Shown: piece after piece, positions 49,328 to 63,968 of the stretch
Layout of the letters: every line of letters begins with the position of its first letter
How positions within the stretch are numbered: position 1 is the stretch's first letter
Assembly: GCA_021850805.1 (NCBI GenBank)
Contig: JAJZKO010000001.1
Coordinates: 45,885-109,884 of the forward strand
DNA: 64,000 nt
Origin: Candidatus Micrarchaeota archaeon
GTDB taxonomy: Archaea > Micrarchaeota > Micrarchaeia > Micrarchaeales > CABMGC01
Direction: 5' to 3'
The notes under the pieces: generated by a model
Databases searched by the model: none
Seen by the model: the letters and a program-made list of their open reading frames with translations, nothing else
Told to the model about the DNA's origin: nothing
Translations under genes and position numbers: made by a program

Positions 49328-50285
49328 TGGCCTCCTGGACGTCAAGCACGAGCGGAGAACTTGGGGAGATGGCGTTCTGCTGCGCGCCGTTGCCTGCGCT
49401 GTATTTGTTCACCGATGTGGTTATTGTGCTTAGTTGGCTTGTCAGAGAGGCCGAGGTGAAGTAGTATGCTATTGAAAAAAGGACAGGCATTATGAAATAG
49501 AAACCTATCGCAGCTGCCATCATCATTCCTCCGAAAGAGCGTGTTGGGAGGAGTGCCCTGAAGGCAATCCCTGGGATAAGGAAGACTGGTATTGCCGCAT
49601 ACATGAAGAATAAAATTATGTAGTATTGCACGTACAAGGATATCAGGGCATCTATCATTAGCCCTACCACAGTTGTCACAGGCCAGTAGAAGTTGACCAT
49701 TATCGGCACGGTGAGTATCTTTCCTATGTTGGTATAGCACTGCGGTTCAAGCGGGTCTAGTTCATTCGGAACGCAGACGGTAAGCCTGAAGCTCGCGTAG
49801 AATGCGTCTACTACAGCATCATTCAGCATAGGCACAACCAGATTCTGGGTGGCGTTTATTGTGGTGGATATGTAAGATAGGGATGCGTTATACGGGTCTA
49901 TTGGGCCTGTTATTGTTGCGGTAAATGCGCCGAAGAGGGTGGCTGCTATGAGAAGGAAGAATACTGCAATTATAGCAGTCGCTGTTGCCTCGTACATCTC
50001 ACCTATGGCGAATGTCCGCAGCCTCTCGTTCTTGAATATCATGGCTGTCATGAAAACTGCGGCAGCTATTGCAAAAGAGAGCATCATTACTACCAATACC
50101 ACTGGCGACCATTTGTTCCATGAGTTTATCACCTGCTGGTTTATGCTGCTGCAGTACCATGGAGCAGTTACCTTGACAAATCCGCTTGATGCGCAGTAGT
50201 TGAAGAGCGAAGCTGCATTTGAGGCTGATGCAGAGAGGAATATTCCGAATATTATGATCATTCCTAGTTTATTCATGGCAATCAT
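49185..50285 (-). CDS. polytopic membrane protein, paralog family member 6 of 6
   Basis: 366 aa. Signal-like N-terminus, ERLRTFAIGEMYEATATAII segment, and motif FRALLPTRSFGGMMMAAAIGFYFIMP. Confidence 0.7.
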   Translation of the reverse strand: MIAMNKLGMIIIFGIFLSASASNAASLFNYCASSGFVKVTAPWYCSSINQQVINSWNKWSPVVLVVMMLSFAIAAAVFMTAMIFKNERLRTFAIGEMYEATATAIIAVFFLLIAATLFGAFTATITGPIDPYNASLSYISTTINATQNLVVPMLNDAVVDAFYASFRLTVCVPNELDPLEPQCYTNIGKILTVPIMVNFYWPVTTVVGLMIDALISLYVQYYIILFFMYAAIPVFLIPGIAFRALLPTRSFGGMMMAAAIGFYFIMPVLFSIAYYFTSASLTSQLSTITTSVNKYSAGNGAQQNAISPSSPLVLDVQEANSAFSSFWLSTLFFPTLIIAITYSTIVQMGEIIGGMARTSGRLRLVV

Positions 50286-51326
50286 TCATATTATGCTTGT
50301 AAGTATTGACATAAAATCCATCCTCTCCCCTATCGCCTTTGAGAAGTCTATTATGAACGTGTCAACTATTATGAAGTTCATCAGCGGAATCAGTGTCAGA
50401 CCCATTATTATGAATCCGACATAGAGCAGTATGACATTTATAAATGCATATATTGGTGCAACGCCTACCACTAGTGTAAAGAGGAATGTGAGCAGCGTGC
50501 TCCAGCTTAGGAGAAGCGCGCCTATGTTGATGTTGCTCAGGGCAAATGTTATGAACCCGTACGAGACCGTGACTAATAGAGGGTAGACAATGCCTATGCC
50601 CAAACCGAACGCTATCATTGCACCGCCGAATGTCCTGCTTATCCCGAAAGCCCTGCCTATGAGGCCCACGGTCATGAAGATTGAGAATAATATAGGGGAT
50701 GCGGCAATCAGGAGAAGCTGCATCTGCTCCGCAAGGAAGAGTATGAAAGCAAGCTGCATGTAAGGAGAAATATAGTGGAATACAGGATATACCGATTCTA
50801 TCGGATTGAAACTGAAAGATATGCTGGAGAAGACGAATGGTATTGATACGTGTATCCCTGGGGAGAATGCAATTAGCAGTGCGAGGTAGTATATTACCTG
50901 GGCAAAGTTGGCAAAGTCTGAATTAAATTGGAATACGTTGCACAGCGCCAGACCGTAAAATGTATTTATCGATGCACCATATGGCGTGTTCGTAGCAGGC
51001 TGGCATGCAGGAGGGAGAAGGCCCACGCTTTTGTAGATTGCTGCAGGCTGCGCGGAGCATATGAATCCTGACACGAATACGAATACGAACACCAGTATTA
51101 TGGTGAAGAGGGAATCGTAGATCTTTGACCTAACCCATACCCTTATGTCGCTCCTTCCGGCAAGAGGCGCCAGCATGAATATTAGGATAAGGACTGTTAT
51201 CACTGCAAGAGATGCTATGATTATTATTGGGAACCAGAACAGGTAAGGGGTCGAGAAGAAACTAGTAGCATTGGCAAGGCAGCTTCCGAGGAGGACATAT
51301 ACGTATGCGAATTGGCCAAGCATCAT
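50286..51326 (-). CDS. polytopic membrane protein, paralog family member 5 of 6
   Basis: 346 aa. Motif GRAFGISRTFGGAMIAFGLGIGIVYP. Abuts the next gene with a 0-nt gap. Confidence 0.7.
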   Translation of the reverse strand: MMLGQFAYVYVLLGSCLANATSFFSTPYLFWFPIIIIASLAVITVLILIFMLAPLAGRSDIRVWVRSKIYDSLFTIILVFVFVFVSGFICSAQPAAIYKSVGLLPPACQPATNTPYGASINTFYGLALCNVFQFNSDFANFAQVIYYLALLIAFSPGIHVSIPFVFSSISFSFNPIESVYPVFHYISPYMQLAFILFLAEQMQLLLIAASPILFSIFMTVGLIGRAFGISRTFGGAMIAFGLGIGIVYPLLVTVSYGFITFALSNINIGALLLSWSTLLTFLFTLVVGVAPIYAFINVILLYVGFIIMGLTLIPLMNFIIVDTFIIDFSKAIGERMDFMSILTSII

Positions 51327-52525
51327 ATCATCTTGCTAAGGACTTTTGAGCTCTGCAGCGATGGAGCCCCGAGCAGATCCCCAAGTATCTCTAGTATATC
51401 GTAACATATTATAATTGCTATCACAAAGCCTATCGCCTGAAATCCGAGGAACGAAACCGCCTTTATGAACGTGCCTATCTCGTTCAGCAGCTGGCCGTTT
51501 AGGCTTACCAGATTAAGGGAGAGCACCGTAAATAGGAATTTGGCAATCTCTGCGAACGGATCTGATAGAAGAGCGGTTGATGAGCACGGGCCTACAGTCG
51601 CAGCGCCTCCTGTGGAGGTATTGCATATGGGTGAGTTAGGGCTGGAGAAAACTACGGATATGCCGTAGACTATCGCAGGAAATATTATGTAGAAGGATAT
51701 GAACAACGCCATTAGGGTTCCTCCTGCGGCTCTTGTCCATGGTATCGAGCGTAGGATTATCCCCAAATAAAGGAAAATGGGTATGAAGAAATATATGAAG
51801 AGAAGCAGTATTATCATAGATATCCCCATTACACCGACGGTAAGTAGTGCTGATTCCTGTATCCAGAGCGTGGTCTGGATCAACTTTGCCCCGCCGAATG
51901 GCACAAAGGTTATTCCGAAGTTATTTGGCATCAGGTTTATTACGACAGAAGATAGCGTATGGTAGTATACGAGATTCTCGACAACGCCGAGGTAATCGTT
52001 ATATAGCGCGTTGTACACGAAATTCGTATATATGTTTGTGCATGTGCTTGTGTATAGTGCGGTCATGGCGGAGAGTGGGCTGCCACTGGGAGCCGCGGCT
52101 CCGGACGACCCGAGGGTGGCTATATTGGCAATGAACGCCACGCCCGGGTATAGGGCTATTGGGCCTGCGAGTATCAGCACAATTGCTATAAGGTTGACGA
52201 GACCTTCAAGCATCTCGGATTTTGCAATTGTCTTAAGCTTTTCTATGCCGAATGCGAAGCCTATAGCGTATACGAGACCCACAACAATGAACACCATGAG
52301 TATGATCATTGCAGATACAAGCAGTATTGTGCTGTATGAACTTGCCTGTATAAGCGATTTGCTTATCAGGGTCGGACCCGTGTTGCCAAGGCCGTTGTAT
52401 CCCTGGAAGAGAGAACTGCATTTGAATAGATCCGGGAAGAATACGCTTGTTGATCCCGCGTGCGCCTGAAGCAGTATGGAGAAGAAGGTCAATAAAGCGG
52501 CAATCAAATGGTAATTTTTCATCAT
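51323..52525 (-). CDS. polytopic membrane protein, paralog family member 4 of 6
   Basis: 400 aa. Signal peptide-like MMKNYHLIAALLTFFSILLQAHA. Motif LRSIPWTRAAGGTLMALFISFYIIFP. 4-nt overlaps at both ends. Confidence 0.7.
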   Translation of the reverse strand: MMKNYHLIAALLTFFSILLQAHAGSTSVFFPDLFKCSSLFQGYNGLGNTGPTLISKSLIQASSYSTILLVSAMIILMVFIVVGLVYAIGFAFGIEKLKTIAKSEMLEGLVNLIAIVLILAGPIALYPGVAFIANIATLGSSGAAAPSGSPLSAMTALYTSTCTNIYTNFVYNALYNDYLGVVENLVYYHTLSSVVINLMPNNFGITFVPFGGAKLIQTTLWIQESALLTVGVMGISMIILLLFIYFFIPIFLYLGIILRSIPWTRAAGGTLMALFISFYIIFPAIVYGISVVFSSPNSPICNTSTGGAATVGPCSSTALLSDPFAEIAKFLFTVLSLNLVSLNGQLLNEIGTFIKAVSFLGFQAIGFVIAIIICYDILEILGDLLGAPSLQSSKVLSKMI

Positions 52526-54081
52526 ACGAACCTCGATAGACCTATGATATTTACGTCTCCTCCGAAGAGATAAGAGAGCCCCATAGTTGCGGATATGATA
52601 AGTATAAGGTTAAGGATGGGTATTATGACACCGCTAACGGCCTCTATGCCGTAAAGGTGTATCAGGCCGAATGTGGTGTAAGCCGCGTTTATCGGCCCTA
52701 CATTATGGAACTGAAGGGGTGTAGCGCCGACGGGAAGGCTATATCCTATGAATGCGCTTGAGAATAAAGTTGTCAGGAGGCCTATAAAACTGAATCCTGG
52801 AACGAGGAAATACACGGCATACTCCATCTCTGAAGGAAGGATATCCTGCGGATAGTAGAAATCCAGGTTTATTATGTCCTTTGCCTTGGGGAATACGTAA
52901 AAGTCTATCGGCCTCTTGTAATAGCATGTCGTCCCAGTCGATCCTGAAGATGGCGGGAAGGTTCCGGGGCATGCACTTATTGGACCTGAGATTGTAGGAG
53001 GTATCCCGTTCTGGAGCTTGTTTGCGCTGGTATAGCAGTATAGCGCACCACTGTCGCTGCCGCTCACAACCCTGCCGCATAGCGGGGTCATTGCCGGTAT
53101 AGTGCTTGAGCCTATCGGTGTAATGCTTGAGGTGTTGCTTAGCGAGGAATATTCAAACATGAATATTATTGGATATATTGTCATCGCCACTACGACCATC
53201 GCCATTATTGTGCCCCCTGCTCTTCTTGTGAGCATGTTAGAGCGGAGTATCATCCCTGCCGCAAGAAGGTAAGGCCAGAGAAAGAGCAGTATGAATACGA
53301 ATATCATCTGGGCAAAGAATATGTAGAATATGAAGGTGGATTCTATTGCTAGAGAGGGCATTACAGACCTGTTGAAGAAGTAGCCGTAAAAGTAATCATA
53401 TGATATTGTTATGCTCGAATATCCCTCAGCACTTGCTGCGCCGAGAAACGGTATGAAGCACGTTTCTGGGAAGCAGAATCCGTTGAATACATGGAAGTTT
53501 CTCAAGAAGAGTATGAACGTGTCGTACTTGTAGAAAGAGTTGAGGTTGGCAACCGTCTGGTTTGTCATGTTTGCGGATAGGACGTATACAGATCCAAGCC
53601 CGTAATCAAGCTTGCCGGTAAATGTCCTGGAATTTATCACTTGGGAGCAGACAAGGTTAGTTGGGGAAGGTATCGGGCCTGGGAAGTTATATTTGCTGTT
53701 TATGATGTTTACCTGCGATCCCGACAGTGTCTTGCATATCGATGAGGTTACTGTAGGGTTTATTATTGAGGTTGTCTGAAGCGTTGTGCCGAGAAGGCTG
53801 AATAGGTATAGTATCAGTATTGCAAATATTATCGTGGCTATCGCCTGGAAGAATTCGTTCTTCCCTGCAGATTTGGCCCTCTGGTTGTTTAGTATGGAGC
53901 CTATCATATAGTAGAGGCCTGATACGATTGTGCTAAGCAGGACAGCGACGCCGACTGCAGGAAGCCACGTGGTGAATGAGGAATATTGGGATATTCCCGC
54001 GGGGGCAGCGTATGTGGTAAGCGTATACATGGCTACCGCGATGAGGGCAAATGGCATTACCTTTGGTATCTTAGTCTTCAT
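52522..54081 (-). CDS. polytopic membrane protein, paralog family member 3 of 6
   Basis: 519 aa. Motif LRSNMLTRRAGGTIMAMVVVAMTIYP. Larger, Cys-containing extracytoplasmic insert. Confidence 0.7.
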   Translation of the reverse strand: MKTKIPKVMPFALIAVAMYTLTTYAAPAGISQYSSFTTWLPAVGVAVLLSTIVSGLYYMIGSILNNQRAKSAGKNEFFQAIATIIFAILILYLFSLLGTTLQTTSIINPTVTSSICKTLSGSQVNIINSKYNFPGPIPSPTNLVCSQVINSRTFTGKLDYGLGSVYVLSANMTNQTVANLNSFYKYDTFILFLRNFHVFNGFCFPETCFIPFLGAASAEGYSSITISYDYFYGYFFNRSVMPSLAIESTFIFYIFFAQMIFVFILLFLWPYLLAAGMILRSNMLTRRAGGTIMAMVVVAMTIYPIIFMFEYSSLSNTSSITPIGSSTIPAMTPLCGRVVSGSDSGALYCYTSANKLQNGIPPTISGPISACPGTFPPSSGSTGTTCYYKRPIDFYVFPKAKDIINLDFYYPQDILPSEMEYAVYFLVPGFSFIGLLTTLFSSAFIGYSLPVGATPLQFHNVGPINAAYTTFGLIHLYGIEAVSGVIIPILNLILIISATMGLSYLFGGDVNIIGLSRFV

Positions 54082-54082
54082 C

Positions 54083-55258
54083 TCATCCCCAGAACGGGCC
54101 TATGCCCATTATCCTTGATATTGAACCGAATCCATTGGAAAGACCCTGTGCGAACCCGACGGTTATTGCGATGTCAAGTGCAACTAGGACTATTCCCTGG
54201 AAAGCATATGCTGCTATCTTGTATCCGTAGCCTATCAGTACCCCATTGAGATTGAAAAGTATGCTTATGAGATTTGAGAACGTGCTTCCATAGCCCCCCA
54301 GCCCTGAAGATGCAAGGCTTATGAAAGACGAGTAAGGGAGCTGCGTTCCGGCAAATGTTGTAACGCCCGCAGGCGAAGAAGAGAAGAGGTTTGCAACAGG
54401 AAGGTTTGTCAGCTGTGGTGAGAGTACGTATGCTGGATAGGGGTTGCATATGCTTATCAGCGGAGTGCATGGGGTGTAAAGCCATGCCATTATGAATCCA
54501 TTCATTATTATGGTAAGCGGGAATATGAAGTAGAAGCTTATCGCTATGGCAATGAATGAGTTAGACGCCTCCTTCAGCCTTGGGCCTGCAAATGGTATGA
54601 ATCTTATCAGTATAGCAACAGGAACTATCAGGGTAAGGGCTATCGACTGCAGAATGTCTAGAAAGAGCATGAGCACATATAGTATCCCGAACGTAACAAC
54701 TATTATTCCGGCGTAAGCCGTATTTAGTACGCTGGAGAAAGCGAAGTATATGCCTATTACATTGTGCCCTAGATCGAAGCCAATGAAGTTCTGGATGATG
54801 GTTATAGGTATTGACGTTATGAGGTCCATTATATTGGCGGCTATTACCAGATTTACAGATTCGGCATAGAGTTCTGTCCATAAGGAGAGCGCTTTTGAGA
54901 ATAGGAGATTCTGTATCGTGTATTCTGCGTATTGCATGGGGTTTGCATAGTTAACTGTAGCTCCGGCTATATACGCGCCCAGGTTGCATGAGAAGGCGGC
55001 GAGGCCTATTATTCCAGCTATTATGAATAAGGTAAGTATTATCTCTGCTGCCTCGTATCTCGATATGCCCTTAAGCTTCTCCCTGTAAGTCACGGGAAGT
55101 ATGTTTGCGATGGTATATATCAGGATTGTGAGTATCATTGCGAATAAAGCAACTACCCCGCTCACGGATATCCATCCTGTGACATACTGCCCGCCAAATG
55201 CACAGGAATTAGTGTAAGGGGAAGCGGCTGCGAGTATTGGTGCAAGTAGCCATAGCAT
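54083..55258 (-). CDS. polytopic membrane protein, paralog family member 2 of 6 (divergent motif)
   Basis: 391 aa. Same architecture, but the motif region is degenerate: IRFIPFAGPRLKEASNSFIAIAISFYFIFP, with no GG. Confidence 0.65.
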   Translation of the reverse strand: MLWLLAPILAAASPYTNSCAFGGQYVTGWISVSGVVALFAMILTILIYTIANILPVTYREKLKGISRYEAAEIILTLFIIAGIIGLAAFSCNLGAYIAGATVNYANPMQYAEYTIQNLLFSKALSLWTELYAESVNLVIAANIMDLITSIPITIIQNFIGFDLGHNVIGIYFAFSSVLNTAYAGIIVVTFGILYVLMLFLDILQSIALTLIVPVAILIRFIPFAGPRLKEASNSFIAIAISFYFIFPLTIIMNGFIMAWLYTPCTPLISICNPYPAYVLSPQLTNLPVANLFSSSPAGVTTFAGTQLPYSSFISLASSGLGGYGSTFSNLISILFNLNGVLIGYGYKIAAYAFQGIVLVALDIAITVGFAQGLSNGFGSISRIMGIGPFWG

Positions 55259-55262
55259 GTGA

Positions 55263-56480
55263 TCACGCGAGTTTTAGTTTGCTCCCAAGGCTGAGCCTGA
55301 GGGTTCCTCCAAGCGATCTGGCTATGCTGTCCACTATCGGATATAGTATCATAAGATCTGCGGCAAATATGAAGAACTGTAGTATCATATAGAATCCATA
55401 ATTAAGTATGTAGTTGTAGAAATAGTACACCCCGTTGAATATGTTTGAGCCTATTCCTGCATATTGCGCAAGGTTGACTATGGGCCCTATTGTGAGCTTG
55501 AAGATTGTATCTATTATCTCTGCGCCAGTATCAAGAAAGAACCCGTTTCCGCTTGTGGGAAGCAGGTTGCCTGAAGATGGCCCTGGTGCAGGCGCCACAT
55601 AGACGTATGGGGATATGGCTTGGGTGAGGGGATAGTTGAAGAGCACAAGAATCGATGGGTATACAATCCCTGCGCCAATGCCTATTGCTATAAGGGTGCC
55701 TCCTATATTTCTCGAGAATGGGAATGCCCTGAAGACCAGTCCCAGAGGTATTATCATTGTCAGACTGGCTTCTATTATTGAGTATAGATTGTACATGAGG
55801 CCTACGGTAAGAAGAGAGGTTGGGAATAGTATGAACTTTATCATGTCGTTTAGCATGGACTCGTATTGTGCAAGTATGTGGTTCCCGCTTTCCAGCAGGT
55901 ATGTTGTGTATATTGGGGTTACAGAGAATCCACTGAGGAATGCGCCGACAAAGGGGATTGGTATTGGAACATACAGGCTTATGCTGAGGCCTTGATAGAG
56001 ACCTATTGCTATTCCAAGCGTAGATACACCATTCCATATATTCACAAGGTTTCCGCATACCGTGTTTAGGTATGTATAAGATTCGGAATAGAGCGTGCCG
56101 ATGTTGTTCACGTAGGACGCAGAAGGGGCTGCGGCGCCTGGAATTACAAACAATGCTATGCTGCTTATGAAGGTTATCGCAAGATATATGCCTGCGATAA
56201 GCATAGCGGATTTGGCTATCTCCCAGTACTCGTTCTGCAGCCAGTTCCTTATTCCTGCCGCTGGGAATATCTTGCTGAGCATGTAACCTACAGCAACTAC
56301 ATCGAAGGATAGGGAAAGCGCCAAGAGGGATACAGATATTGCCGCTGATGGCAGCCCTGCAAGCGGCTTGGTCACCTCCGCAGGGCAGAATGTAGATGAC
56401 GCAGCCGAGGATACGCCTACAAATAGTGCCAGTAGCAATGCGCTTAGCATAAGCGTACTCCTTTTACCGCGCATGCTCAT
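55263..56480 (-). CDS. polytopic membrane protein, paralog family member 1 of 6
   Basis: 405 aa. Signal-like MSMRGKRSTLMLSALLLALFVGVSSA. Motif FRAFPFSRNIGGTLIAIGIGAGIVYP. Confidence 0.7.
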   Translation of the reverse strand: MSMRGKRSTLMLSALLLALFVGVSSAASSTFCPAEVTKPLAGLPSAAISVSLLALSLSFDVVAVGYMLSKIFPAAGIRNWLQNEYWEIAKSAMLIAGIYLAITFISSIALFVIPGAAAPSASYVNNIGTLYSESYTYLNTVCGNLVNIWNGVSTLGIAIGLYQGLSISLYVPIPIPFVGAFLSGFSVTPIYTTYLLESGNHILAQYESMLNDMIKFILFPTSLLTVGLMYNLYSIIEASLTMIIPLGLVFRAFPFSRNIGGTLIAIGIGAGIVYPSILVLFNYPLTQAISPYVYVAPAPGPSSGNLLPTSGNGFFLDTGAEIIDTIFKLTIGPIVNLAQYAGIGSNIFNGVYYFYNYILNYGFYMILQFFIFAADLMILYPIVDSIARSLGGTLRLSLGSKLKLA

Positions 56481-56522
56481 ATATAGGTTGCTTGTTTTAT
56501 AAGGTTTATCTCATGCAGGAGG

Positions 56523-57251
56523 TTAATGCCTCAGCAGCGGGAAGCGCCTTATGTACGCTTCTGCGATGAATATGACAAAATAAGGGAGTATGAATACGGA
56601 GTTTATCACCAATGTCACATAGCTCCCTGCCACTCCGAACAGGCCTGAGGATACCAGATCAACAAAGGAAGTTGCAGCTGCGAAGAGCACAAGCCACAGG
56701 ACCACGTATTTAGGGGATGTTACTACAAGCCTTATGCTTCCCTTGAACGAGGCGAAGAACCCCTTGTTGTCTATAACCATCGCCGTAGGCATATAGAATA
56801 TCAGTAGGAATATGATAAGGTTCAACGCCTCAGCCCATATAACCGGGAAGGAGAAGAGGTATGAAGATATGTTTAGTATTATGACAATGAATGCGTAGAA
56901 AAGGAGGATTGAGAATACGCGGCTTATGTATTTCTCTATCTCGAGCATCACCCTCTTGCTTGTCGCCATGTGCGTCTTCTCCGACTTTACAATCAAGCTT
57001 ATGGCAACGAATGCAAAGCTTATGAAGAGCATGGATACGAAGGTTGATATGGTAACCACGGCCAATACCGTAGGGTTTGTATTGACAAATATGCTTGCAG
57101 TCCTCAGGAATATTGCACCTGTGCTTATATACGTAGGCAAAGGAGCGAGCAGCGGTATCAGGAATGCTATCAGGAAGGGTATCGAGAAGAGGATTATAAG
57201 ACGGATATTGTCCCGGTATATCCCGAGCGAGTCGGAAACCACGTTTGCCAT
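56523..57251 (-). CDS. hypothetical polytopic membrane protein
   Basis: 242 aa, about 6 TM. No family recognised. Same strand and chain as the paralog array. Confidence 0.6.
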   Translation of the reverse strand: MANVVSDSLGIYRDNIRLIILFSIPFLIAFLIPLLAPLPTYISTGAIFLRTASIFVNTNPTVLAVVTISTFVSMLFISFAFVAISLIVKSEKTHMATSKRVMLEIEKYISRVFSILLFYAFIVIILNISSYLFSFPVIWAEALNLIIFLLIFYMPTAMVIDNKGFFASFKGSIRLVVTSPKYVVLWLVLFAAATSFVDLVSSGLFGVAGSYVTLVINSVFILPYFVIFIAEAYIRRFPLLRH

Positions 57252-57274
57252 TTTATCTCTCTTCTGATATAGGT

Positions 57275-59185
57275 TCAGCTAAAATTATATATTTCTTTGG
57301 ATATATATACGTCGCTTGAATTGTAGATGTATGCGGAGGCCACGTATATTCTTGAGGTAGTGTTTATGCTGGCATTTATGCGCATTGTTCCTTTGCCTGC
57401 GGCGAGCCTTATAAGATTAGGATTTACTGCACACGGGTATCCGGTGCAGTTGAGTGCGTTGGGTAGTACTTTATCACCCCCTAGCCCGTATATCGTAGGC
57501 TTGGATAGAAGCGAGTTTGACTCTTCCTCTGTGGATACGATAAGATAGAGATCCCTAGGAGCCGTAGATAGATAGTTCAGATTAAAGGAGTAGACTGTAA
57601 GGTTGCCTCTCCTTGCAAGTGTCTGGTTGGTTACATTGATACTAAAATGTGATGCGAATGCGGAATGGTATGTTGCCGGAAGAAACGCGATAAGAAGCAC
57701 TATCAGTATAGCAGAGCAGAGGGCGACGCGGATATTTGTAAGGTGATTTCGTGATGACCCGATAAATTTTATGAAGTCGCTTTTCTTGTATGAAATTATT
57801 GCAACTACGGAAAATAGGCCGAATGTTGCAAAGTAAGTTGCTGATGAACGATCCATAAGCAGGAATGGGATCATGCTCAGGACCGGTATCAGAGCCTTTT
57901 CCCTAGTCACTATAAGGATAGCGACTGCCAGGAGTATTCCGAGAATAAATAACGAAGTATATGAGGGAAGGCTTATTGGATAATAATATGCTAGCGAGTA
58001 GCCGAGAAGGGCATATGAATCAGGGAATATGCCTCCGCTGACAGGATCGAATACAGAGTGCATGAATAAGGCGGGTGACAGAAGCATGAAGTACGAATTT
58101 AATATCAGGAACACTGCGCAGGTTCCTATTAGCGCAACTGCGCCTCTCCGCTTCCCATATTTCATGAATGAATAGATTATAAGGAGCAGGACGGGTATCC
58201 AAAGCTCCTCCTGGAGCGATGCTGCAAGGCCCAGAAGCACCCATGATCTTCTCCACCCTATCTTTGCATATGCCAGTATTATTATAGCAAGCATCAGCGA
58301 TGTGGTTGGTGATGCTACGGTAATGGTGCCTATGCTAAGGAAGATTATTAGCCATGGGATGGGCCTCGCCAGTACCTTTTCCCTGAGGACATATGCAACT
58401 GCAAACAATAGCAGAGCTACGAATACCATTGACTGCACTTGCAGGTCTATGGTGAATATGTTGCTTATTGTAGGCTTTGAGATGAAATAAAACGGGATTG
58501 AGGAAATTAGGTACAGGGCAGGATAGTTAAGGACGCCCACTATTGTATTACTTGCTGTGAAGGTTATGTCGGCTTTGTGACTAAGGGAGAAGAGGAGCTG
58601 GGATATTGACGATGAATATGGATTAAGGCCATGCAATGTTGCGTTTATTGAATAGAAAGTTATAAGCGGCTCGTCCGTAAGTGTGAAGCGCGTTACCACG
58701 ATCCCGTAATACGCTGCGATTATTGCTATGAATAGAATGGATGCCGCTACTATGATTGCTATCTCCTTTCTGCTGCGCCGCGTTGTCTTAAGGCATAGTT
58801 GGATTATCAATGCGGAGCATGCTAACAGCGGAAGAATTACAAGCGCCTGAAGGGTATAGACATATGTGATGGATATGAGGTTAATTGCATAGAATGAAGC
58901 CAGCTTTATATTCATGAATTCAGGATTAGAGAAGAATAGCAGTATGGAGATGGCGCATAGCGCATGCTCAAGCTTCCGCCTGGAGGTTGCTGCTCTGATT
59001 GGAAGGTGCTTATTGCTTATGTAGATTATAGAGTATGATAAGAATGCCAGTGCATATATTGAAAGACTAAGGGAAAACTCGCCAGTAAGAGACGAGATAA
59101 ATGTAAATATAAATAAAAAAAGGGAAATGAAGAATCCATTTCCCCTGAAGTATGCCCAAACCCCGCCTAAAGGATGCTTGGACAC
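57275..59185 (-). CDS. large polytopic membrane protein with C-terminal extracytoplasmic domain (possible GT-C-type glycosyltransferase-like)
   Basis: 636 aa. More than 12 hydrophobic segments, then about 130 aa of sequon-rich soluble C-terminal domain. The GT-C suggestion rests on architecture only. Confidence 0.6.
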   Translation of the reverse strand: MSKHPLGGVWAYFRGNGFFISLFLFIFTFISSLTGEFSLSLSIYALAFLSYSIIYISNKHLPIRAATSRRKLEHALCAISILLFFSNPEFMNIKLASFYAINLISITYVYTLQALVILPLLACSALIIQLCLKTTRRSRKEIAIIVAASILFIAIIAAYYGIVVTRFTLTDEPLITFYSINATLHGLNPYSSSISQLLFSLSHKADITFTASNTIVGVLNYPALYLISSIPFYFISKPTISNIFTIDLQVQSMVFVALLLFAVAYVLREKVLARPIPWLIIFLSIGTITVASPTTSLMLAIIILAYAKIGWRRSWVLLGLAASLQEELWIPVLLLIIYSFMKYGKRRGAVALIGTCAVFLILNSYFMLLSPALFMHSVFDPVSGGIFPDSYALLGYSLAYYYPISLPSYTSLFILGILLAVAILIVTREKALIPVLSMIPFLLMDRSSATYFATFGLFSVVAIISYKKSDFIKFIGSSRNHLTNIRVALCSAILIVLLIAFLPATYHSAFASHFSINVTNQTLARRGNLTVYSFNLNYLSTAPRDLYLIVSTEEESNSLLSKPTIYGLGGDKVLPNALNCTGYPCAVNPNLIRLAAGKGTMRINASINTTSRIYVASAYIYNSSDVYISKEIYNFS

Positions 59186-59210
59186 TTAAGCACTGATGGT
59201 TGTTGCCTTA

Positions 59211-59594
59211 TCAGCAGCTTGCAGGTAGTGTTATTGAACCTCCGCCAGCACCAGCTGTTCCGGAGAATCCTACTACCATATTGACAATGAATGGAGCTAT
59301 TATTACGAGCACCAGCCCGATTACTCCTCCTACTATCATTGCCATAGACCATCCCTGCGCTCCAGCTCTTACGTTTCCAGCTGCAGGCAACAGATGCGCT
59401 ACCGCATAGATGGCACCGCCAGCTATGAAGAGAGCTATAGCCAATACACCTACGACAGTTCGTATTGTATTTACTATGCCGCATATCTGCGAGGTTACTC
59501 CTGTAACTCCCGTTGCTGCTGATGCTATTATACTGGAAAATCCAAGAACCACTAATGCCATATACACTAGGTTCGTGAACTTCGATATGTTCAT
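59211..59594 (-). CDS. small two-helix membrane protein, VirB2/TrbC/CedA1-like pilin candidate
   Basis: Start moved to the internal ATG (MNISKFTNLVYMALVVLGFSSIIASA|ATG). The track start at 59675 overlaps the esterase gene. Signal peptide, then hydrophobic helix, basic loop (PAAGNVRAGAQG) and hydrophobic helix. A TATA-like taataatat lies about 20 nt upstream. Confidence 0.5.
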   Translation of the reverse strand: MNISKFTNLVYMALVVLGFSSIIASAATGVTGVTSQICGIVNTIRTVVGVLAIALFIAGGAIYAVAHLLPAAGNVRAGAQGWSMAMIVGGVIGLVLVIIAPFIVNMVVGFSGTAGAGGGSITLPASC

Positions 59595-59674
59595 ACAATC
59601 AACACGCATATTATTACATTGGCTATTTATAAGCTTTGCCCCATTTTGGGCTGCTATTATTAAATATTTGCCCA

Positions 59675-60721
59675 TTAGCCAAGCTTCTCTTGGAGGAAAG
59701 AGGCTGTGAGGTTCTCTATCTGCGGGATTGAGGGATTTATCGGATGCGGGCCTGCCTGGGAAAAGCTATGTCCAGAGTTATTAACTATTATCAATGTCGC
59801 ATTGTTTCCATGTTCTATAAGCGAGTTGTACAGTACATATGACTGATATGGAGGCACGGTGGTATCCTTATTGCCCTGGAATATCAGGAACGGGGGCTCG
59901 TTGGTACCTATGTAGTTTACCGGGCTTGCGAGCTCGAGCAGCGTGTAGTTGTCCATGAATACCTCATTCAGGTCCTGCTGCCTGTATTCGTTTATCTGCA
60001 CGCTTGTGGAGTTGTGGTATTCATACCACGTTAGATTGCTTGGACCAAAGTTATCTACTACAGCTTCTACACTGCTAGAGTAGTTTGCGTATGGGCCGTT
60101 AGACCATAGGCTGCTATTTGAAGTAAATGCGAGAAGCTGAACTAACTGGCCTCCTGCGCTGCTTCCTACAACTCCTATCTCGTTTGGGTTTATATTATAT
60201 CTCGCTGCGTTGGCCCTGAAGTATCTTACAGCACACTTGACGTCTATTATCTGGGCAGGGAATGGGTATTGCGGCGCAAGCCTGTAGTTTATCGCCGCTA
60301 CTATGAAATTATCCCTTAACAGCGCAGGTACTATGTAATAGCTGTTCTCAGGAAGGGAGGAGCCGTTTACAGTGTATTTTTCTATCTGGGCATAGGTCAA
60401 GTTGAATGCGGATCCTGCATGCCATCCGCCTCCGTGCACAACTATCACCAGAGGCAAAGTTTTGTTCCTGCTGGATGGCGGTAGATAGATATATGCAATG
60501 TCGGAACTGTTCCCTGATGGATTTCCGAACGGGCAGTAGTTTGCCTTGATCATCTGCGGACCGTAGAGCACCCCTACGCCAGACTGCCCCACGGCAGAAC
60601 CGGATTTGGCATGGCTGCCAATAACCAAATACGTGATGAGCATTATTACTATAGCGGTTATTATTGCTGCTATTGCGTATGCCGCTGCGCTGCTCCCTGA
60701 TGGAGTATGCACTTGTATCAT
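59675..60721 (-). CDS. membrane-anchored alpha/beta hydrolase (esterase/lipase, HGG type)
   Basis: 348 aa. N-terminal TM AAAYAIAAIITAIVIMLITYLVIG. Oxyanion VVHGGGWHAGS. Nucleophile elbow VVGSSAGGQL. Confidence 0.85.
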   Translation of the reverse strand: MIQVHTPSGSSAAAYAIAAIITAIVIMLITYLVIGSHAKSGSAVGQSGVGVLYGPQMIKANYCPFGNPSGNSSDIAYIYLPPSSRNKTLPLVIVVHGGGWHAGSAFNLTYAQIEKYTVNGSSLPENSYYIVPALLRDNFIVAAINYRLAPQYPFPAQIIDVKCAVRYFRANAARYNINPNEIGVVGSSAGGQLVQLLAFTSNSSLWSNGPYANYSSSVEAVVDNFGPSNLTWYEYHNSTSVQINEYRQQDLNEVFMDNYTLLELASPVNYIGTNEPPFLIFQGNKDTTVPPYQSYVLYNSLIEHGNNATLIIVNNSGHSFSQAGPHPINPSIPQIENLTASFLQEKLG

Positions 60722-60843
60722 CCTCTCCTAGAACCGCAGGTGCAGCCGCAATCGCAGCCATCCTTACATATGCATCCTGATGAGCAGCCGCACATGCACC
60801 TTCCTCCGCATTCGCATCCCGCGCCTGCGCCCTGATTAGCCAT
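60718..60843 (-). CDS. Cys-rich metallothionein-like peptide (41 aa)
   Basis: Below the track cutoff. My codon-by-codon translation is MANQGAGAGCECGGRCMCGCSSGCICKDGCDCGCTCGSRRG, with 11 Cys, all in C-x-C or C-x(3)-C spacing. Its TGA overlaps the esterase ATG (ATGA). Confidence 0.45.
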   Translation of the reverse strand: MANQGAGAGCECGGRCMCGCSSGCICKDGCDCGCTCGSRRG

Positions 60844-60903
60844 CTCATACCCACTTCCGCTGCGCGTGATATCCGTGCATCTTATCCCTATTATTAATCA
60901 ATC

Positions 60904-61362
60904 ATGGGATTTATATTTGGTTCTATGCATTTCGCTGCAAAATTTATTGTTATTGCAGTTTTGGCTGTGATATTGGTAGTTGCAGTTTATTACGCGTGGA
61001 ACGCGGAAAACCACGGCGCCTCTGTGAACTTTTCTTACGCACATATCAGCCTTGGGGACGGCAGAGTCAATGGGACTTACTGGATAGCAAATACGCTGGA
61101 TGCGCAGGAATACGGATACATGAATGCCTCCTCCCCTGAAGTATTGGGCAATGGAGAGAGGTGCAGCATTTGCACAGGTATGCTCTTTGAATTCGGGTAC
61201 AATCAGGTAATATGCATGTGGATGAAGAATACTAAGATGCACCTCCTGATCAGGTGGTTTTATCTTAACGGGAGCCTATCTTACGAACGCGTAGGGATAC
61301 CTTATAACACAACCCAATACTGCGCATATGCTGCTTATGTCGTTGAGACAGAGACATCATGA
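60904..61362 (+). CDS. hypothetical N-terminally anchored extracytoplasmic protein
   Basis: 152 aa. TM FAAKFIVIAVLAVILVVAVYYAW, then a soluble domain with sequons and Cys residues. No family recognised. Confidence 0.5.
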   Translation: MGFIFGSMHFAAKFIVIAVLAVILVVAVYYAWNAENHGASVNFSYAHISLGDGRVNGTYWIANTLDAQEYGYMNASSPEVLGNGERCSICTGMLFEFGYNQVICMWMKNTKMHLLIRWFYLNGSLSYERVGIPYNTTQYCAYAAYVVETETS

Positions 61363-61371
61363 GCGCCTGGC

Positions 61372-62958
61372 TTATTTGGGCTCTGGATAAAAGTCCATCC
61401 CGTAGATACCGTCTATATTTAATATCCGTGACTTACCTTTCCTTCCCTTCATTACTATAGTGTAAAAGGGAAGCGCAGCTTCCTTGGACCACATAACCCT
61501 AGAACCGGGAAAGAGCGAGGCTGCTATCTTCTCCATATATTTTGATCCGCCTTTTATGCGGTAATGCACAGAATTTGCGTCTGAAGCTTCTTCTGTTCTG
61601 CGCATATCTTCTGGTATCGAGAACCCGTGGGTGACGATTGGAGTGTAATACTTGCCTTCAAGCCTTACCTGCCCTTTCTTTTCGAGCTTTTTAAGAATGG
61701 TTCCTGCACTTATCAGATCCGTCTTCAGCTTTTTTGAGATGTATTCTGCGCTTGTACGGCCACTCTTCTGCACTTCTTCAAGTGCCTTTGCTTCTTCTCC
61801 TGAAAGCCTTGCACCCTTTATGCGCACGCATTCGACCTGCTGCCTTTGTTTAATCCTGAAGGCGAGTCCATCACCTATAAGAACCGTGCTGTCCTCATAT
61901 TCGCCTCGCTTCTTTGAAGGTATGAGTATTCTCATCATATATGCATCTATATATTCGGGGCTTACAGACTCTATCGCCTCTGTCTCGCTCCCGAAGAGCA
62001 TGAATTCCTTCCTTGACTTTTTTCTGGCTATGGATCGTGCGTCGATCTCGTTTACACACCTGGCCAGAGAGGACAGGCGGAGATTATGCTTAGCCTGTAT
62101 TTTTTGCTTCTGTGCAGGAGACGTTTCAGGATTCTTTCCTGCACCCCGTATGTCCTTTAGAAGTTCAGCCATGGGAATGTTCTTTCTTCCATAAGCCTGG
62201 GAGAGCGATGGAGTGCTTCCTGAATGCACCACTTCCCTGCGCTTCACCCTGAGAACCGCTTCTTCGGCTCCCTCAATGCCGAACGGAAGGAAACTGCCGG
62301 TCTGCAGCCTCGGGAGCATATCCAGCTGTTCCTGCCTGCTGAATAGTATCCTTATCGCCTGCACGTCGTTTTCGATGCTCAGCTTTCCTATGAATCCGTA
62401 GGAGCACTGAGCCAGGACATTCTTGCTTATGTTGGCAGGCCTCTGCGTTGCGACTAGAAGCCCTATGCCACGCTTCCTTCCCCTTACGCTGATTTCCTCT
62501 ATCATATTCCTCTTTTGCCTTACTACCTGTGGTGCAAACTTGTCAGCTTCCTCAATTACAACCAGAAACGGCCTTTTGATGCCCTCTTCCATTGAATACA
62601 GCTCAGAGAGCACGGACTGGACGCTCACGTCCTTGTCAAGGGTATCGGAGAGATCATAGATTACAGGTATTCCGTACTTCATGCTCTCTGCAAATACCGC
62701 TCCCATGCGTTCTGATGGTTTTATGTCTGCGGAAGGGTTGCTCTCCGAGATCCATATCGCATTGAATTTTGACTTTATTGATGCATACTCTCCTTCGGTG
62801 TCTATCACCATGAAAGGGAGGCCGAGTTTGCAGAGCTCCTCGACTATTACCCCAACTAGATATGATTTTCCGGAGCCGCTCTGTCCTATAACGCATCCGC
62901 GTCCTGTCATCACCTGCTGTGCGTCTATATTGAAATCTTCAGAGAGATTTATCTGCAA
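61372..62958 (-). CDS. DUF87/HerA-FtsK superfamily ATPase with C-terminal wHTH-like extension
   Basis: 528 aa. Walker A VIGQSGSGKSYL, MVIDTEGEY, Walker B FLVVIEEADKF, and GIGLLVATQRPANI. The C-terminal part includes EEVQKSGRTSAEYISKKLKTDLISAGTILKKLEKKGQV. Confidence 0.8.
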   Translation of the reverse strand: MQINLSEDFNIDAQQVMTGRGCVIGQSGSGKSYLVGVIVEELCKLGLPFMVIDTEGEYASIKSKFNAIWISESNPSADIKPSERMGAVFAESMKYGIPVIYDLSDTLDKDVSVQSVLSELYSMEEGIKRPFLVVIEEADKFAPQVVRQKRNMIEEISVRGRKRGIGLLVATQRPANISKNVLAQCSYGFIGKLSIENDVQAIRILFSRQEQLDMLPRLQTGSFLPFGIEGAEEAVLRVKRREVVHSGSTPSLSQAYGRKNIPMAELLKDIRGAGKNPETSPAQKQKIQAKHNLRLSSLARCVNEIDARSIARKKSRKEFMLFGSETEAIESVSPEYIDAYMMRILIPSKKRGEYEDSTVLIGDGLAFRIKQRQQVECVRIKGARLSGEEAKALEEVQKSGRTSAEYISKKLKTDLISAGTILKKLEKKGQVRLEGKYYTPIVTHGFSIPEDMRRTEEASDANSVHYRIKGGSKYMEKIAASLFPGSRVMWSKEAALPFYTIVMKGRKGKSRILNIDGIYGMDFYPEPK

Positions 62959-63149
62959 TTGCCCACCGCAAGGCGCTTTTTCCTAGCACCGTAACTTATT
63001 ACTTATGCCTTTATTTTATACCTTGCTGTGTGGTACTATCCTGCAGGCGCAGCGTACGCCTGCTTTAATGATATACTTGCGTAAACTGCACAGAAACAAA
63101 GATATAAATTAAATTTAGCGTTTACTTGATTACTAATTCTGGTGGTTTA

Positions 63150-63968
63150 ATGGTAGAGAATGTAGATGTTAATGGGGAAATGGTAGAGTACCGGAGCGGC
63201 GATCATAAGATAAAGGCTTACGTGGCATCGCCTAACTCTGAGACTGGCAAACTTCCTGCAGTTATTGTTGTGCATGAAATATTTGGGCTTGATGCCCATA
63301 TAGAGGATGTCGCAAGGAGATTTGCGGCAGAGGGCTATATCGCCGTGGCCCCGGATCTGTACAGCAAACCGGGAATGCCTGTGACTCCGCAGGAGATAGA
63401 GAAAGGCATGGGGTTTATGATGAGCCTGCCGCCATCTGAGATGAGAAATCATGAGTATGTCGCTGCCAGGATACAGGAGCTTCCGAAGGATGATGGGGAG
63501 GTCGTGGGAAAGGCGATAAGATGGCTCACCGGAAGGAACCTTGATGAGCATGTTCCTGACCTTAAAGCAGGATTTGAGTGGGTTGCCCGGAACAGGTCGG
63601 TTGATAAGAATAGGATATTCGCGATAGGATTCTGTATGGGAGGCACGCTGGTAGGTAAGCTTGCCGCTGAGGGCACGGAGCTTGCAGGGGCAAGCATATT
63701 CTATGGGGAGAATCCAGCTGCTGAGAAGATAGCCAGGATAAAGTGCCCTGTGCTAGGCATATACGGTGGGGAGGACCATAGGATAACTGACAAGGTGCCA
63801 GAGCTTGAGAAGCTTATGAAGGAGAATGGCAAGAGCTTCAGGTACAGGATTTTCCCTGGCGCGTATCATGCGTTCTTCAACGATACCAGGAAGATGTACA
63901 ACAAGGAAGCTGCCGCAGATGCCTGGAGAGAGGTTCTTGGCTTCTTTGGAAAAGAGGGAAATGAGTAG
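63150..63968 (+). CDS. dienelactone hydrolase family protein
   Basis: Internal ATG (MVENVDVNGEMVEY). Motifs PAVIVVHEIFGL, AIGFCMGG (nucleophile Cys) and FPGAYHAF. Confidence 0.88.
   Translation: MVENVDVNGEMVEYRSGDHKIKAYVASPNSETGKLPAVIVVHEIFGLDAHIEDVARRFAAEGYIAVAPDLYSKPGMPVTPQEIEKGMGFMMSLPPSEMRNHEYVAARIQELPKDDGEVVGKAIRWLTGRNLDEHVPDLKAGFEWVARNRSVDKNRIFAIGFCMGGTLVGKLAAEGTELAGASIFYGENPAAEKIARIKCPVLGIYGGEDHRITDKVPELEKLMKENGKSFRYRIFPGAYHAFFNDTRKMYNKEAAADAWREVLGFFGKEGNE

What the first reader, a model, noticed from the sequence alone, without database searches (positions are those of the whole stretch)
60718..60843. An unannotated 41-aa C-x-C-rich metallothionein-like ORF is translationally coupled to a membrane-anchored esterase
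The minus strand encodes MANQGAGAGCECGGRCMCGCSSGCICKDGCDCGCTCGSRRG.
- It has 11 Cys in 41 residues, arranged CEC, CMCGC, CIC and CDCGCTC. It has no aromatic residues and is Gly-rich. These are hallmarks of metallothioneins.
- Its TGA overlaps the ATG of the alpha/beta hydrolase gene (ATGA).
- A TATA-like ttaataata lies about 50 nt upstream, in a 60-nt divergent intergenic region.
- The ORF track reports only a 168-aa out-of-frame ORF here.

Bona fide metallothioneins are rarely reported in archaea. A metal-buffering peptide would make sense in a metal-rich acidic habitat. Alternatively it could be a Cys-rich precursor peptide or a zinc-finger-like micro-protein.
Basis: seen in the sequence. 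Interest (0 to 1): 0.6.

Follow-up and report, generated by a model that had tools for sequence, protein, structure and literature searches.

The report
Conserved 11-cysteine mini-protein of Micrarchaeota
The 41-codon cysteine-rich ORF is a real gene, missed by annotation here, from a small undescribed protein family of Micrarchaeota (tiny symbiotic archaea); it looks like a metallothionein (a metal-binding cysteine-rich protein), and its link to the neighbouring esterase gene is a local accident.

Summary
Window 60718..60843 (-) encodes MANQGAGAGCECGGRCMCGCSSGCICKDGCDCGCTCGSRRG. It has 11 Cys and 11 Gly in 41 residues, and its TGA overlaps the ATG of a membrane-anchored BD-FAE esterase.

It is a real gene.
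- Two diverged copies of the same module (L002, L012) keep it intact. Against L002, 13 of 17 nucleotide differences are at third codon positions, and dN/dS is 0.066 versus 0.061 for the esterase core.
- I recovered 20 distinct family members, 41-60 aa long. All 11 Cys are invariant, as are E11, G13, G14, G19 and G33.
- The only named member is "hypothetical protein [Candidatus Micrarchaeota archaeon]". The window's own peptide is absent from a collection of about 15 billion predicted proteins.

The esterase link exists only in the three close copies. Elsewhere the gene sits beside a parvulin-type prolyl isomerase, deoxyhypusine synthase, ribosomal protein genes or tyrosyl-tRNA synthetase, or inside a 2-oxoacid dehydrogenase operon. 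No neighbour is a metal-homeostasis gene.

There is no sequence homology to any Pfam metallothionein family or PDB chain, and AlphaFold gives a disordered model. The best reading is a cytosolic metal-thiolate cluster protein: a new metallothionein-type family in archaea. Metal binding is untested. No paper describing it was found.

The parts
60718..60843 (-). 41-codon CDS of the 11-Cys mini-protein (ATG 60843..60841, TGA 60720..60718)
   Evidence: Sequence and ORF. dN/dS against the L002 copy is 0.066, with 13 of 17 differences at codon position 3 (binomial P 3e-4). Across 14 gap-free members of the 20 distinct family members, variable columns per codon position are 15/15/35 of 39.
60889..60897 (-). 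TATA-like element 'ttaataata', 46-54 nt upstream of the ATG (candidate archaeal promoter; inferred)
   Evidence: Read. 'attaataata' is conserved at the same place in L002 and L012, although the rest of the spacer has diverged. No transcript data.
60844..60903 (.). 60-nt divergent intergenic spacer between the small gene and the DUF192/UPF0127-like gene (60904..61362 +)
   Evidence: The spacer is much less conserved between module copies (36/60 identical) than the small CDS (about 85%).
60718..60721 (-). ATGA stop/start overlap (esterase ATG 60721..60719, small-gene TGA 60720..60718)
   Evidence: The sister copies have TAATG overlaps instead. Translational coupling is inferred from this geometry only.
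60722..60729 (-). Shine-Dalgarno-like AGGAGAGG inside the last codons (S-R-R-G) of the small gene, abutting the esterase ATG
   Evidence: Read. L002 has AGGAGGG at the equivalent place. Function not tested.
59675..60721 (-). Downstream cistron: esterase/lipase of the BD-FAE alpha/beta-hydrolase family, with an N-terminal membrane anchor and many N-x-S/T sequons
   Evidence: Pfam PF20434 at E 3.8e-54. The N-terminal hydrophobic segment and the GSSAG motif are seen in the translation. Core omega is 0.061, against 0.46 for the N-terminal 59 residues.

Best explanation
The ORF is a translated gene for a cytosolic 41-residue protein. It belongs to a previously undescribed family, seen so far only in Candidatus Micrarchaeota (DPANN archaea) where a taxon label exists, and in unlabelled metagenome contigs.

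The family signature is M-[APT]-N-Q-[GS]-x-G-x-G-C-E-C-G-G-x-C-x-C-G-C-x2-[GD]-C-x-C-[KRQE]-x2-C-x-C-G-C-[TS]-C. That is two CxCxxxCxCGC half-repeats plus one more Cys. Most members then carry a short acidic tail, which the window copy lacks.

The core is 27 residues with 11 invariant Cys, all in C-x-C spacing. There is no signal peptide and no predicted secondary structure. I infer that the protein folds only around a metal-thiolate cluster and acts as a metallothionein-type buffer or store for Zn(II) and/or Cu(I). By analogy with 11-Cys metallothionein domains, it would hold about 4 divalent ions or more Cu(I) ions.

Its varied, housekeeping-type neighbourhoods and strong purifying selection suggest a constitutive role rather than an inducible resistance role.

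In the window lineage an esterase gene has come to lie directly behind it, replacing the acidic tail. The esterase now shares its promoter and probably reinitiates at the ATGA/TAATG overlap. This is operon capture, not a functional partnership.

Shown: gene reality, family, invariant Cys array, lineage-restricted esterase linkage. Inferred: metal binding, stoichiometry, cytosolic location, coupling mechanism.
For: Coding:
- Window against L002: dN/dS 0.066 and dS 0.74, matching neighbouring genes. All other frames give a ratio above 1 except the antisense frame.
- 13 of 17 differences are at codon position 3, P 3e-4.
- The small CDS is an island of conservation between diverged flanks.
- Across 14 gap-free members, variable columns per codon position are 15/15/35 of 39, and pooled pN/pS is 0.25.
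- The start codon is always at M-x-N-Q, with an in-frame stop 0-20 codons upstream in most members.

Family:
- A full HMMER scan of 1.84 billion representative proteins gave 4 hits, E 5e-9 to 4e-4.
- The metagenome scan gave 9 more loci.
- A profile search gave 8 protein clusters, E down to 5e-16.
- All 11 Cys plus E11, G13, G14, G19 and G33 are invariant.
- Taxon: the window matches a Ca. Micrarchaeota MAG. P0123 is an NCBI 'hypothetical protein [Candidatus Micrarchaeota archaeon]'.

Metallothionein-like:
- 27% Cys against 0.91% in the window's long ORFs.
- Only C-x-C motifs, and no aromatic residue or His in the window copy.
- The AlphaFold2 model has no secondary structure, pLDDT 51. This is as expected for an apo-thionein, but it is weak evidence.

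Esterase link is local:
- The esterase is the neighbour only in window/L001, L002 and L012.
- Other contexts are listed.
Against: - There is no experimental or expression evidence of any kind.
- No sequence similarity to known metallothioneins. Pfam gave none for the window peptide, and one member hit Metallothio_5 at E 1.3. NCBIfam gave none. The best PDB hit was E 1.8, to a conotoxin. hhalign to human MT2A gave 9% probability.
- No metal-homeostasis gene neighbours any of the roughly 10 distinct contexts.
- Non-Cys residues (N3, Q4, E11, G13, G14, T35) are conserved more tightly than is usual for metallothioneins. This could point to a specific partner or a different cofactor.
- Some members carry one aromatic residue in the core (Y, F or W).
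- Several contexts are thiol-redox flavoured. One member sits between E2 and E3 of a 2-oxoacid dehydrogenase operon near AhpC/thioredoxin-like genes. Another lies near MsrA and a gene that reads like MsrB. Others lie near a Pyr_redox_2 flavoprotein gene.
Confidence: 0.6

Rival explanations
1. It is a real conserved protein, but its job is thiol redox chemistry rather than metal storage. For example, it could be a polythiol/disulfide buffer or electron relay, or a substrate of a flavoprotein disulfide reductase, in organisms with reduced thiol metabolism. It could also be a small Fe-S or persulfide carrier.
For: - In L027-L029 the gene sits between E2 and E3 (a Pyr_redox_2 flavoprotein) of a 2-oxoacid dehydrogenase operon. 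AhpC/thioredoxin-like genes lie upstream and NAD kinase downstream.
- L009 and, by its matching gene order, L019 have a Pyr_redox_2 gene plus NAD kinase within about 3 kb.
- L018 has MsrA (Pfam PMSR, E 2.8e-62) within about 1 kb, and a neighbouring gene that reads like MsrB by eye only.
- Non-Cys residues are unusually conserved.
Against: - These neighbourhoods cover only 3 of about 10 contexts and may reflect residual synteny among related genomes.
- C-x-C spacing is poor for reversible intramolecular disulfides and is not a known Fe-S motif (established knowledge, not tested here).
- 11 Cys in 27 residues without secondary structure is the classic metal-thiolate cluster architecture.
Confidence: 0.15
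2. It is a small zinc-stabilised structural subunit or adaptor of a housekeeping complex, such as the translation apparatus. Metal would serve only to fold it, as in small Cys-rich ribosomal proteins or archaeal zinc-finger micro-proteins.
For: - Neighbours are often translation or protein-folding genes. These include the rpL1-L10-P1 cluster (L008, L022-L026), deoxyhypusine synthase (L013, L014), Tyr/Trp-tRNA synthetase (L030-L032), parvulin PPIase (L010, L015, L016) and LonB (L017).
- Non-Cys positions and the N-terminus are strongly conserved.
Against: - Reduced DPANN genomes are dominated by such genes, so the adjacency is weak evidence.
- Known structural zinc modules use 4 ligands in CxxC pairs, not 11 Cys in C-x-C arrays.
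- The variable, dispensable C-terminal tail (absent in the window clade) and the lack of any predicted fold argue against a docking module.
Confidence: 0.15
3. It is not a functional protein. It could be a chance ORF, the antisense 42-aa P/Q/H-rich ORF (60707..60835 +) could be the real gene, it could be a Cys-codon leader peptide or uORF that merely regulates the esterase, or it could be an RNA element.
For: - The antisense frame is open in the window and in L002 and shows omega 0.17 in that pair.
- The ORF overlaps the esterase start, as regulatory uORFs do.
- Gene callers skipped it.
Against: - The antisense frame has stop codons in 9 of 14 family members, and its pooled pN/pS is 0.50 against 0.25 for the Cys frame.
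- The amino-acid sequence is conserved in 17 members that have no esterase downstream.
- No Rfam match and no tandem repeat.
- Downstream genes are not cysteine-biosynthetic.
Confidence: 0.04
4. It is a precursor of a ribosomally synthesised, post-translationally modified or secreted Cys-rich peptide.
For: Small size and high Cys content. There is a short conserved N-terminal segment, MANQG.
Against: - No radical-SAM enzyme, cyclodehydratase, lanthionine synthetase, protease or dedicated exporter is consistently adjacent. An ABC transporter lies near only L009 and L019.
- There is no signal peptide.
- The whole core is under purifying selection and the contexts are housekeeping ones.
Confidence: 0.04

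Closest known systems
Metallothioneins as an operational class, especially all-C-x-C types (fungal Cu-thioneins of the Neurospora type, the Cys-rich domains of plant type 1/2 metallothioneins) and the 11-Cys alpha-domain of vertebrate metallothionein (comparison from established knowledge, sequences recalled from memory)
   Same: Under 10 kDa, about 27% Cys, C-x-C motifs separated by Gly/Ser/Lys, and essentially no aromatic residue or His. No predicted secondary structure. The 11 Cys equal the ligand count of an M(II)4Cys11 cluster. There are local motif echoes such as AGxxCxCxGxCxC and GCxCK.
   Different: No detectable homology: hhalign 9% probability to human MT2A, no significant Pfam metallothionein hit and no PDB sequence hit. 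It is archaeal and restricted to one lineage. It has no CC or CxxC motifs. Non-Cys positions are unusually invariant. Contexts are housekeeping ones rather than metal-regulated operons. Metal binding is unproven.
Bacterial metallothioneins SmtA/BmtA (Pfam PF02069) and mycobacterial MymT
   Same: They are small prokaryotic cytosolic Cys-rich proteins, proposed or shown to buffer Zn or Cu.
   Different: SmtA-type proteins use His plus Cys around a zinc-finger-like fold and usually sit next to an SmtB/ArsR repressor gene. Here there is no His, no Pfam or NCBIfam match, and no ArsR/SmtB-type neighbour in any locus.
Archaeal zinc-finger micro-proteins (haloarchaeal CPxCG-type small proteins)
   Same: They are archaeal proteins of under 70 aa, often missed by annotation, and rich in Cys.
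   Different: Those carry two CxxC-type pairs (4 ligands, one Zn) and a defined fold. This family has 11 Cys in C-x-C spacing and no CxxC pair.
Overlapping stop/start (ATGA, TAATG) gene pairs translated by termination-reinitiation in prokaryotic operons
   Same: The same 4-nt and 5-nt overlap geometry links the small gene and the esterase in all three module copies.
   Different: Coupling was not measured. The partner gene is not conserved across the family, so the pairing is structural rather than functional.

Membership tests
Metallothionein (operational class definition) | Low molecular mass (under about 10 kDa) | tested here: met
   The window protein is 41 aa and family members are 41-60 aa from the conserved Met.
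Metallothionein (operational class definition) | High Cys content (about 15-30%) arranged in C-x-C, C-x-x-C or CC motifs | tested here: met
   11 of 41 residues (27%), all in C-x-C arrays, invariant in 20 members.
Metallothionein (operational class definition) | Few or no aromatic residues and His | tested here: met
   None in the window copy. Some homologues have a single Y, F or W in the core, or Y in the tail.
Metallothionein (operational class definition) | High metal content bound in metal-thiolate clusters with characteristic spectroscopy | not testable with these tools
   Needs expression with ICP-MS, ESI-MS, UV and CD. The AlphaFold2 model is disordered (pLDDT 51), which is compatible but not evidence.
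Any curated metallothionein sequence family (Pfam Metallothio_* families, SmtA PF02069; NCBIfam) | Significant match to the family HMM | tested here: not met
   No Pfam or NCBIfam hit for the window peptide even at E up to 10. Among 16 members, only one hit Metallothio_5, at E 1.3. The PDB profile search found no metallothionein.
Micrarchaeota 11-Cys mini-protein family (defined here) | M-x-N-Q start and an invariant C-E-C-G-G-x-C-x-C-G-C ... C-x-C-x3-C-x-C-G-C-[TS]-C array | tested here: met
   The window peptide matches all invariant columns. phmmer E 5e-9 to 4e-4 to P0121-P0124. Profile E down to 5e-16.
Amino-acid-rich leader peptide / regulatory uORF | The peptide sequence is itself unconstrained, and it always precedes the regulated (biosynthetic) gene | tested here: not met
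   There is strong purifying selection on the peptide. Downstream genes differ among members and are unrelated to Cys metabolism.
RiPP precursor peptide | Conserved adjacency to modifying enzymes, protease or exporter | tested here: not met
   No such genes are consistently adjacent across about 10 contexts.
BD-FAE esterase/lipase (downstream gene) | Match to PF20434 above the gathering score, plus a G-x-S-x-G nucleophile motif | tested here: met
   183.9 bits against a cutoff of 26.8, E 3.8e-54. The GSSAG motif is in the translation.

The most novel reading that the evidence does not exclude
This is the first metallothionein-type protein family of Archaea. It would be an independently evolved, internally duplicated 11-Cys metal-thiolate cluster protein, kept under strong purifying selection as a constitutive Zn/Cu buffer in the reduced genomes of Micrarchaeota, and largely invisible to annotation because gene callers skip it or call it 'hypothetical'.
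Probability: 0.5. Interest if true: 0.7.

Novelty: new variant of a known kind. Interest (0 to 1): 0.6.

Why it matters
- Metallothioneins are documented in eukaryotes and in a few bacterial groups. The library held no paper with the phrase 'archaeal metallothionein', and none of the top-ranked papers of a DPANN/Micrarchaeota search mentioned metallothionein. A conserved archaeal family would fill a gap in how archaea buffer soft metals.
- It would add an independent origin to a famously polyphyletic protein class.
- It would give a very small, sequence-defined scaffold of 27 core residues for bioinorganic study.
- It is also a concrete example of a conserved small gene lost to annotation. In L012 the neighbouring esterase call was wrongly extended across it.
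- If the metal-binding inference fails, a strictly conserved 11-Cys protein retained in minimal symbiont genomes is still an unexplained and testable object.

Tried and rejected
- **Word-index protein search with the single peptide:** nothing found. The exhaustive HMMER scan and a profile search were needed.
- **Viral contigs:** 155 pattern matches, none a relative.
- **Curated families and structures:** Pfam and NCBIfam gave nothing for the peptide. The PDB sequence profile gave only noise. hhalign against human MT2A gave 9% probability.
- **Structure:** AlphaFold2 with a 9-sequence alignment gave pLDDT 51 and no secondary structure, so I did not run a fold search, which would be meaningless.
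- **Antisense 42-aa ORF:** rejected, because it has stops in 9 of 14 members.
- **168-aa out-of-frame ORF:** rejected. Its frame has omega 1.5 and it runs out of frame through the esterase.
- **RNA element or tandem repeat:** no Rfam match and no TRF hit.
- **Functional coupling to the esterase:** rejected as a family property.
- **Metal-gene neighbourhood:** looked for and not found.
- **Another Cys-rich reading frame at about window 21184 (+):** it has no start codon and I judged it to be chance.
- **Literature:** searches for an explicit statement on metallothioneins in archaea gave no useful passage.
Full report
**1. Observation**

Window 60718..60843 on the minus strand reads ATG...TGA and translates to MANQGAGAGCECGGRCMCGCSSGCICKDGCDCGCTCGSRRG.
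- It has 11 Cys and 11 Gly in 41 residues and no aromatic residue or His.
- The Cys form the array C-E-C, C-M-C-G-C, C-I-C, C-D-C-G-C-T-C.
- Its TGA (60720..60718) shares three bases with the ATG (60721..60719) of a 348-aa ORF.
- That ORF matches Pfam BD-FAE (PF20434) at E 3.8e-54. It has an N-terminal hydrophobic anchor, a GSSAG motif and many N-x-S/T sequons.
- 'ttaataata' lies at 60897..60889, inside the 60-nt spacer that separates the small ORF from a divergently oriented DUF192/UPF0127-like gene (60904..61362 +).
- A 168-aa GTG ORF (60348..60854 -) overlaps out of frame.

The ORF is a compositional outlier. Among 391 ATG-ORFs of at least 30 aa in six frames of the window it has 26.8% Cys, and the next has 15.6%. 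The long ORFs average 0.91% Cys. It is not a tandem repeat and matches no Rfam family.

**2. Source and sister copies**

The esterase finds a 100%-identical locus (L001). It also finds an 86%-identical second locus (L002) on another contig of the same MAG, labelled Candidatus Micrarchaeota archaeon. A third copy, 84% identical (L012), comes from an ENA metagenome.

All three share a module of about 5.7 kb:
- a DUF87/HerA-like ATPase;
- a DUF192-like gene;
- the small ORF;
- the esterase;
- a TrbC/VirB2-like pilin;
- a 636-aa membrane protein.

The small ORF is intact in all three copies. L002 reads MANQGAGAGCECGGRCLCGCSSGCVCKNGCDCGCTCGSRRE and L012 ends in ...GSRRR. All Cys are kept, and the stop overlaps the esterase ATG as TAATG.

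The alignment of the window with L002 shows the small CDS as an island of about 85% identity. The spacer (36/60 identical) and the esterase N-terminus (29-33/60 identical) on either side are much more diverged.

**3. It is coding, in this frame**

| Comparison | Result |
|---|---|
| Window vs L002, position of differences | 13 of 17 at codon position 3 (binomial P 3e-4) |
| Window vs L002, small ORF | dN/dS 0.066, dS 0.74 |
| Esterase core, same pair | dN/dS 0.061 |
| HerA-like ATPase, same pair | dN/dS 0.09 |
| Two other sense frames and two antisense frames | ratios of 1.5 and above, or no synonymous change at all |
| Antisense frame holding the 42-aa P/Q/H-rich ORF (60707..60835 +) | 0.17 |

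The antisense ORF was the one serious rival frame. Across 14 gap-free family members, variable columns per codon position are 15/15/35 of 39, and pooled pN/pS is 0.25 in the Cys frame. The antisense frame has stop codons in 9 of 14 members, which eliminates it.

**4. A family**

- The word-index search with the single peptide found nothing.
- An exhaustive phmmer scan of 1.84 billion representative proteins found four proteins of 48-76 aa, E 4.9e-9 to 4.4e-4 and 67-75% identity.
- A degenerate-pattern scan of metagenome contigs added nine loci.
- A profile search added four more protein clusters, with E down to 4.9e-16.

In total there are 20 distinct sequences.
- Invariant: M1, all 11 Cys, E11, G13, G14, G19 and G33. 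N3, Q4, G7 and G9 are nearly invariant.
- The core is an internal duplication, CxCxxxCxCGC twice, followed by [TS]-C.
- The start codon is fixed at M-[APT]-N-Q. In-frame stops lie 0-20 codons upstream in most loci.
- Most members carry a 5-20-residue, mostly acidic C-terminal tail. The three esterase-linked copies end right after R-R, where the esterase begins.
- The most divergent member (L020) has a basic N-terminus and one spacer that is two residues longer, but still 11 Cys.
- Locus G+C ranges from 44% to 57%, so the carriers are not one species.
- The only source name is 'hypothetical protein [Candidatus Micrarchaeota archaeon]' (MDE1833680.1).
- The exact peptides of the window, L002 and L012 are not in the ~15-billion-protein collection. 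In L012 the esterase call was extended upstream through the small gene in the wrong frame.

**5. Context**

The esterase is downstream only in the three module copies. Other contexts are:

| Loci | Neighbouring genes |
|---|---|
| L010, L015, L016 | parvulin PPIase starting at the next base |
| L013, L014 | deoxyhypusine synthase, then an ornithine/arginine decarboxylase-like gene |
| L008, L022-L026 | HD hydrolase, small gene, MscL, rpL1-L10-P1 |
| L009, L018, L019 | convergent Amidohydro_2-type gene (Pfam in L009; L018 and L019 by sequence likeness); L009 and L019 also have an upstream ABC transporter and a Pyr_redox_2/NAD-kinase pair; L018 has MsrA and a gene that reads like MsrB nearby |
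| L027-L029 | small gene sits between E2 and E3 of a 2-oxoacid dehydrogenase operon; AhpC/thioredoxin-like genes upstream |
| L030-L032 | Tyr/Trp-tRNA synthetase, plus a convergent DUF87 ATPase that is 39% identical to the window's ATPase |
| L017 | LonB |
| L011 | methyltransferase |

No metal transporter, metallochaperone or ArsR/SmtB-type regulator was seen anywhere. The gene therefore behaves like a constitutive, chromosomal, lineage-specific housekeeping gene. The coupling to the esterase is best explained as operon capture: the esterase has no spacer or promoter of its own. An SD-like AGGAGAGG lies in the last codons of the small gene, and L002 has AGGAGGG there.

**6. What it does (inference)**

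The core is 27 residues with 11 invariant Cys, all in C-x-C spacing. There is no signal peptide and no hydrophobic core. AlphaFold2 gives pLDDT 51 with no secondary structure. Such a sequence cannot fold on its own.

The established precedent for this architecture is the metal-thiolate cluster of metallothioneins. Eleven thiolates equal the ligand set of an M(II)4Cys11 cluster, as in the vertebrate alpha-domain. All-C-x-C arrays are typical of fungal Cu-thioneins and plant type 1/2 domains (established knowledge, from memory). I therefore favour a Zn(II)/Cu(I)-binding, metallothionein-type protein, with confidence of about 0.6.

It is not a member of any known metallothionein sequence family:
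- Pfam and NCBIfam gave nothing for the peptide, and a single member hit Metallothio_5 at E 1.3.
- The PDB profile search found only a conotoxin and teneurin, at E 1.8.
- hhalign against human MT2A gave 9% probability.

Two features are atypical for metallothioneins: the tight conservation of non-Cys residues and the housekeeping or redox-flavoured neighbourhoods. They keep two rivals alive, a thiol-redox role and a zinc-folded subunit of a larger complex. Leader-peptide, RiPP-precursor, RNA-element and chance-ORF readings are rejected for the reasons given in the rivals section.

**7. Known or new**

- The phrase 'archaeal metallothionein' occurs in no paper of the library.
- Two papers hold both 'metallothionein' and 'Micrarchaeota', each term only once and in unrelated contexts.
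- None of the 12 top-ranked papers of the combined DPANN/ARMAN/metallothionein search mentions metallothionein.
- A 2012 study states that Thermococcus gammatolerans encodes no metallothionein orthologues (PMC3407056).
- A 2026 preprint on Cys-rich repeats mentions Micrarchaeota only as a taxon among BLAST hits of larger repeat proteins.

I could not find an explicit review statement on metallothioneins in archaea, so 'first' remains a cautious claim. I rate the finding as a new variant of a known kind. It is a new, independently evolved family with metallothionein-class sequence features, in a domain of life where none has been characterised, and its biochemical function is still to be shown.

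**8. Verdict**

The gene is real and metallothionein-like. The esterase coupling is real but incidental. The habitat argument and metal binding are untested.
- Interest is 0.6.

Noticed in passing
window 57275..62958 (also L002 1678..7354, L012 569..4783): A module of about 5.7 kb occurs in three diverged copies at about 76-86% amino-acid identity (the DUF192-like gene is lower, 68-76%). It comprises a DUF87/HerA-like ATPase with a C-terminal winged-helix domain, a DUF192-like gene, the small Cys gene, the esterase, a TrbC/VirB2-like pilin and a 636-aa polytopic membrane protein. A pilin plus a HerA-like ATPase is reminiscent of archaeal Ced/Ted-type conjugation-like machinery. The pilin Pfam hit is weak (E 2e-3).
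   Followed up: partly
window 59211..59675 (-): The pilin-like gene is 99-100% identical in protein between module copies, with dS 0.115. Its neighbours have dS of about 0.9. This suggests gene conversion or recent replacement of this one gene.
   Followed up: partly
window 49185..59185 (-): Nine consecutive same-strand ORFs of 242-636 aa (the last is the 636-aa membrane protein of the module) gave no Pfam hit at E <= 1e-3. This is a 10-kb block of unknown function directly downstream of the pilin-like gene.
   Followed up: partly
L027 4760..7535 (also L028, L029): In one lineage the small Cys gene is inserted between the E2 and E3 genes of a 2-oxoacid dehydrogenase operon. AhpC/thioredoxin-like genes lie upstream, and a hydrolase, NAD kinase and an FAD/NAD oxidoreductase lie downstream.
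   Followed up: no
L030 2973..4691 (also L031, L032): A homologue of the window's DUF87 ATPase (39% identity, E 3e-113) lies convergent to the small Cys gene and overlaps it by 12 nt. This ATPase-small gene adjacency therefore recurs in a distant lineage, in a different orientation.
   Followed up: partly
window 60545..60721 (-), esterase N-terminus: The esterase membrane-anchor region (residues 1-59) is far more diverged between copies (omega 0.46) than the catalytic core (omega 0.06). The first 29 residues do not align in the protein comparison. In L012 the public gene call is wrongly extended 5' over the small gene.
   Followed up: yes
window 63126..63968 (+): A dienelactone-hydrolase-family gene (PF01738, E 1e-53) lies just beyond the module. 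It is a second alpha/beta hydrolase within 3 kb of the esterase.
   Followed up: no
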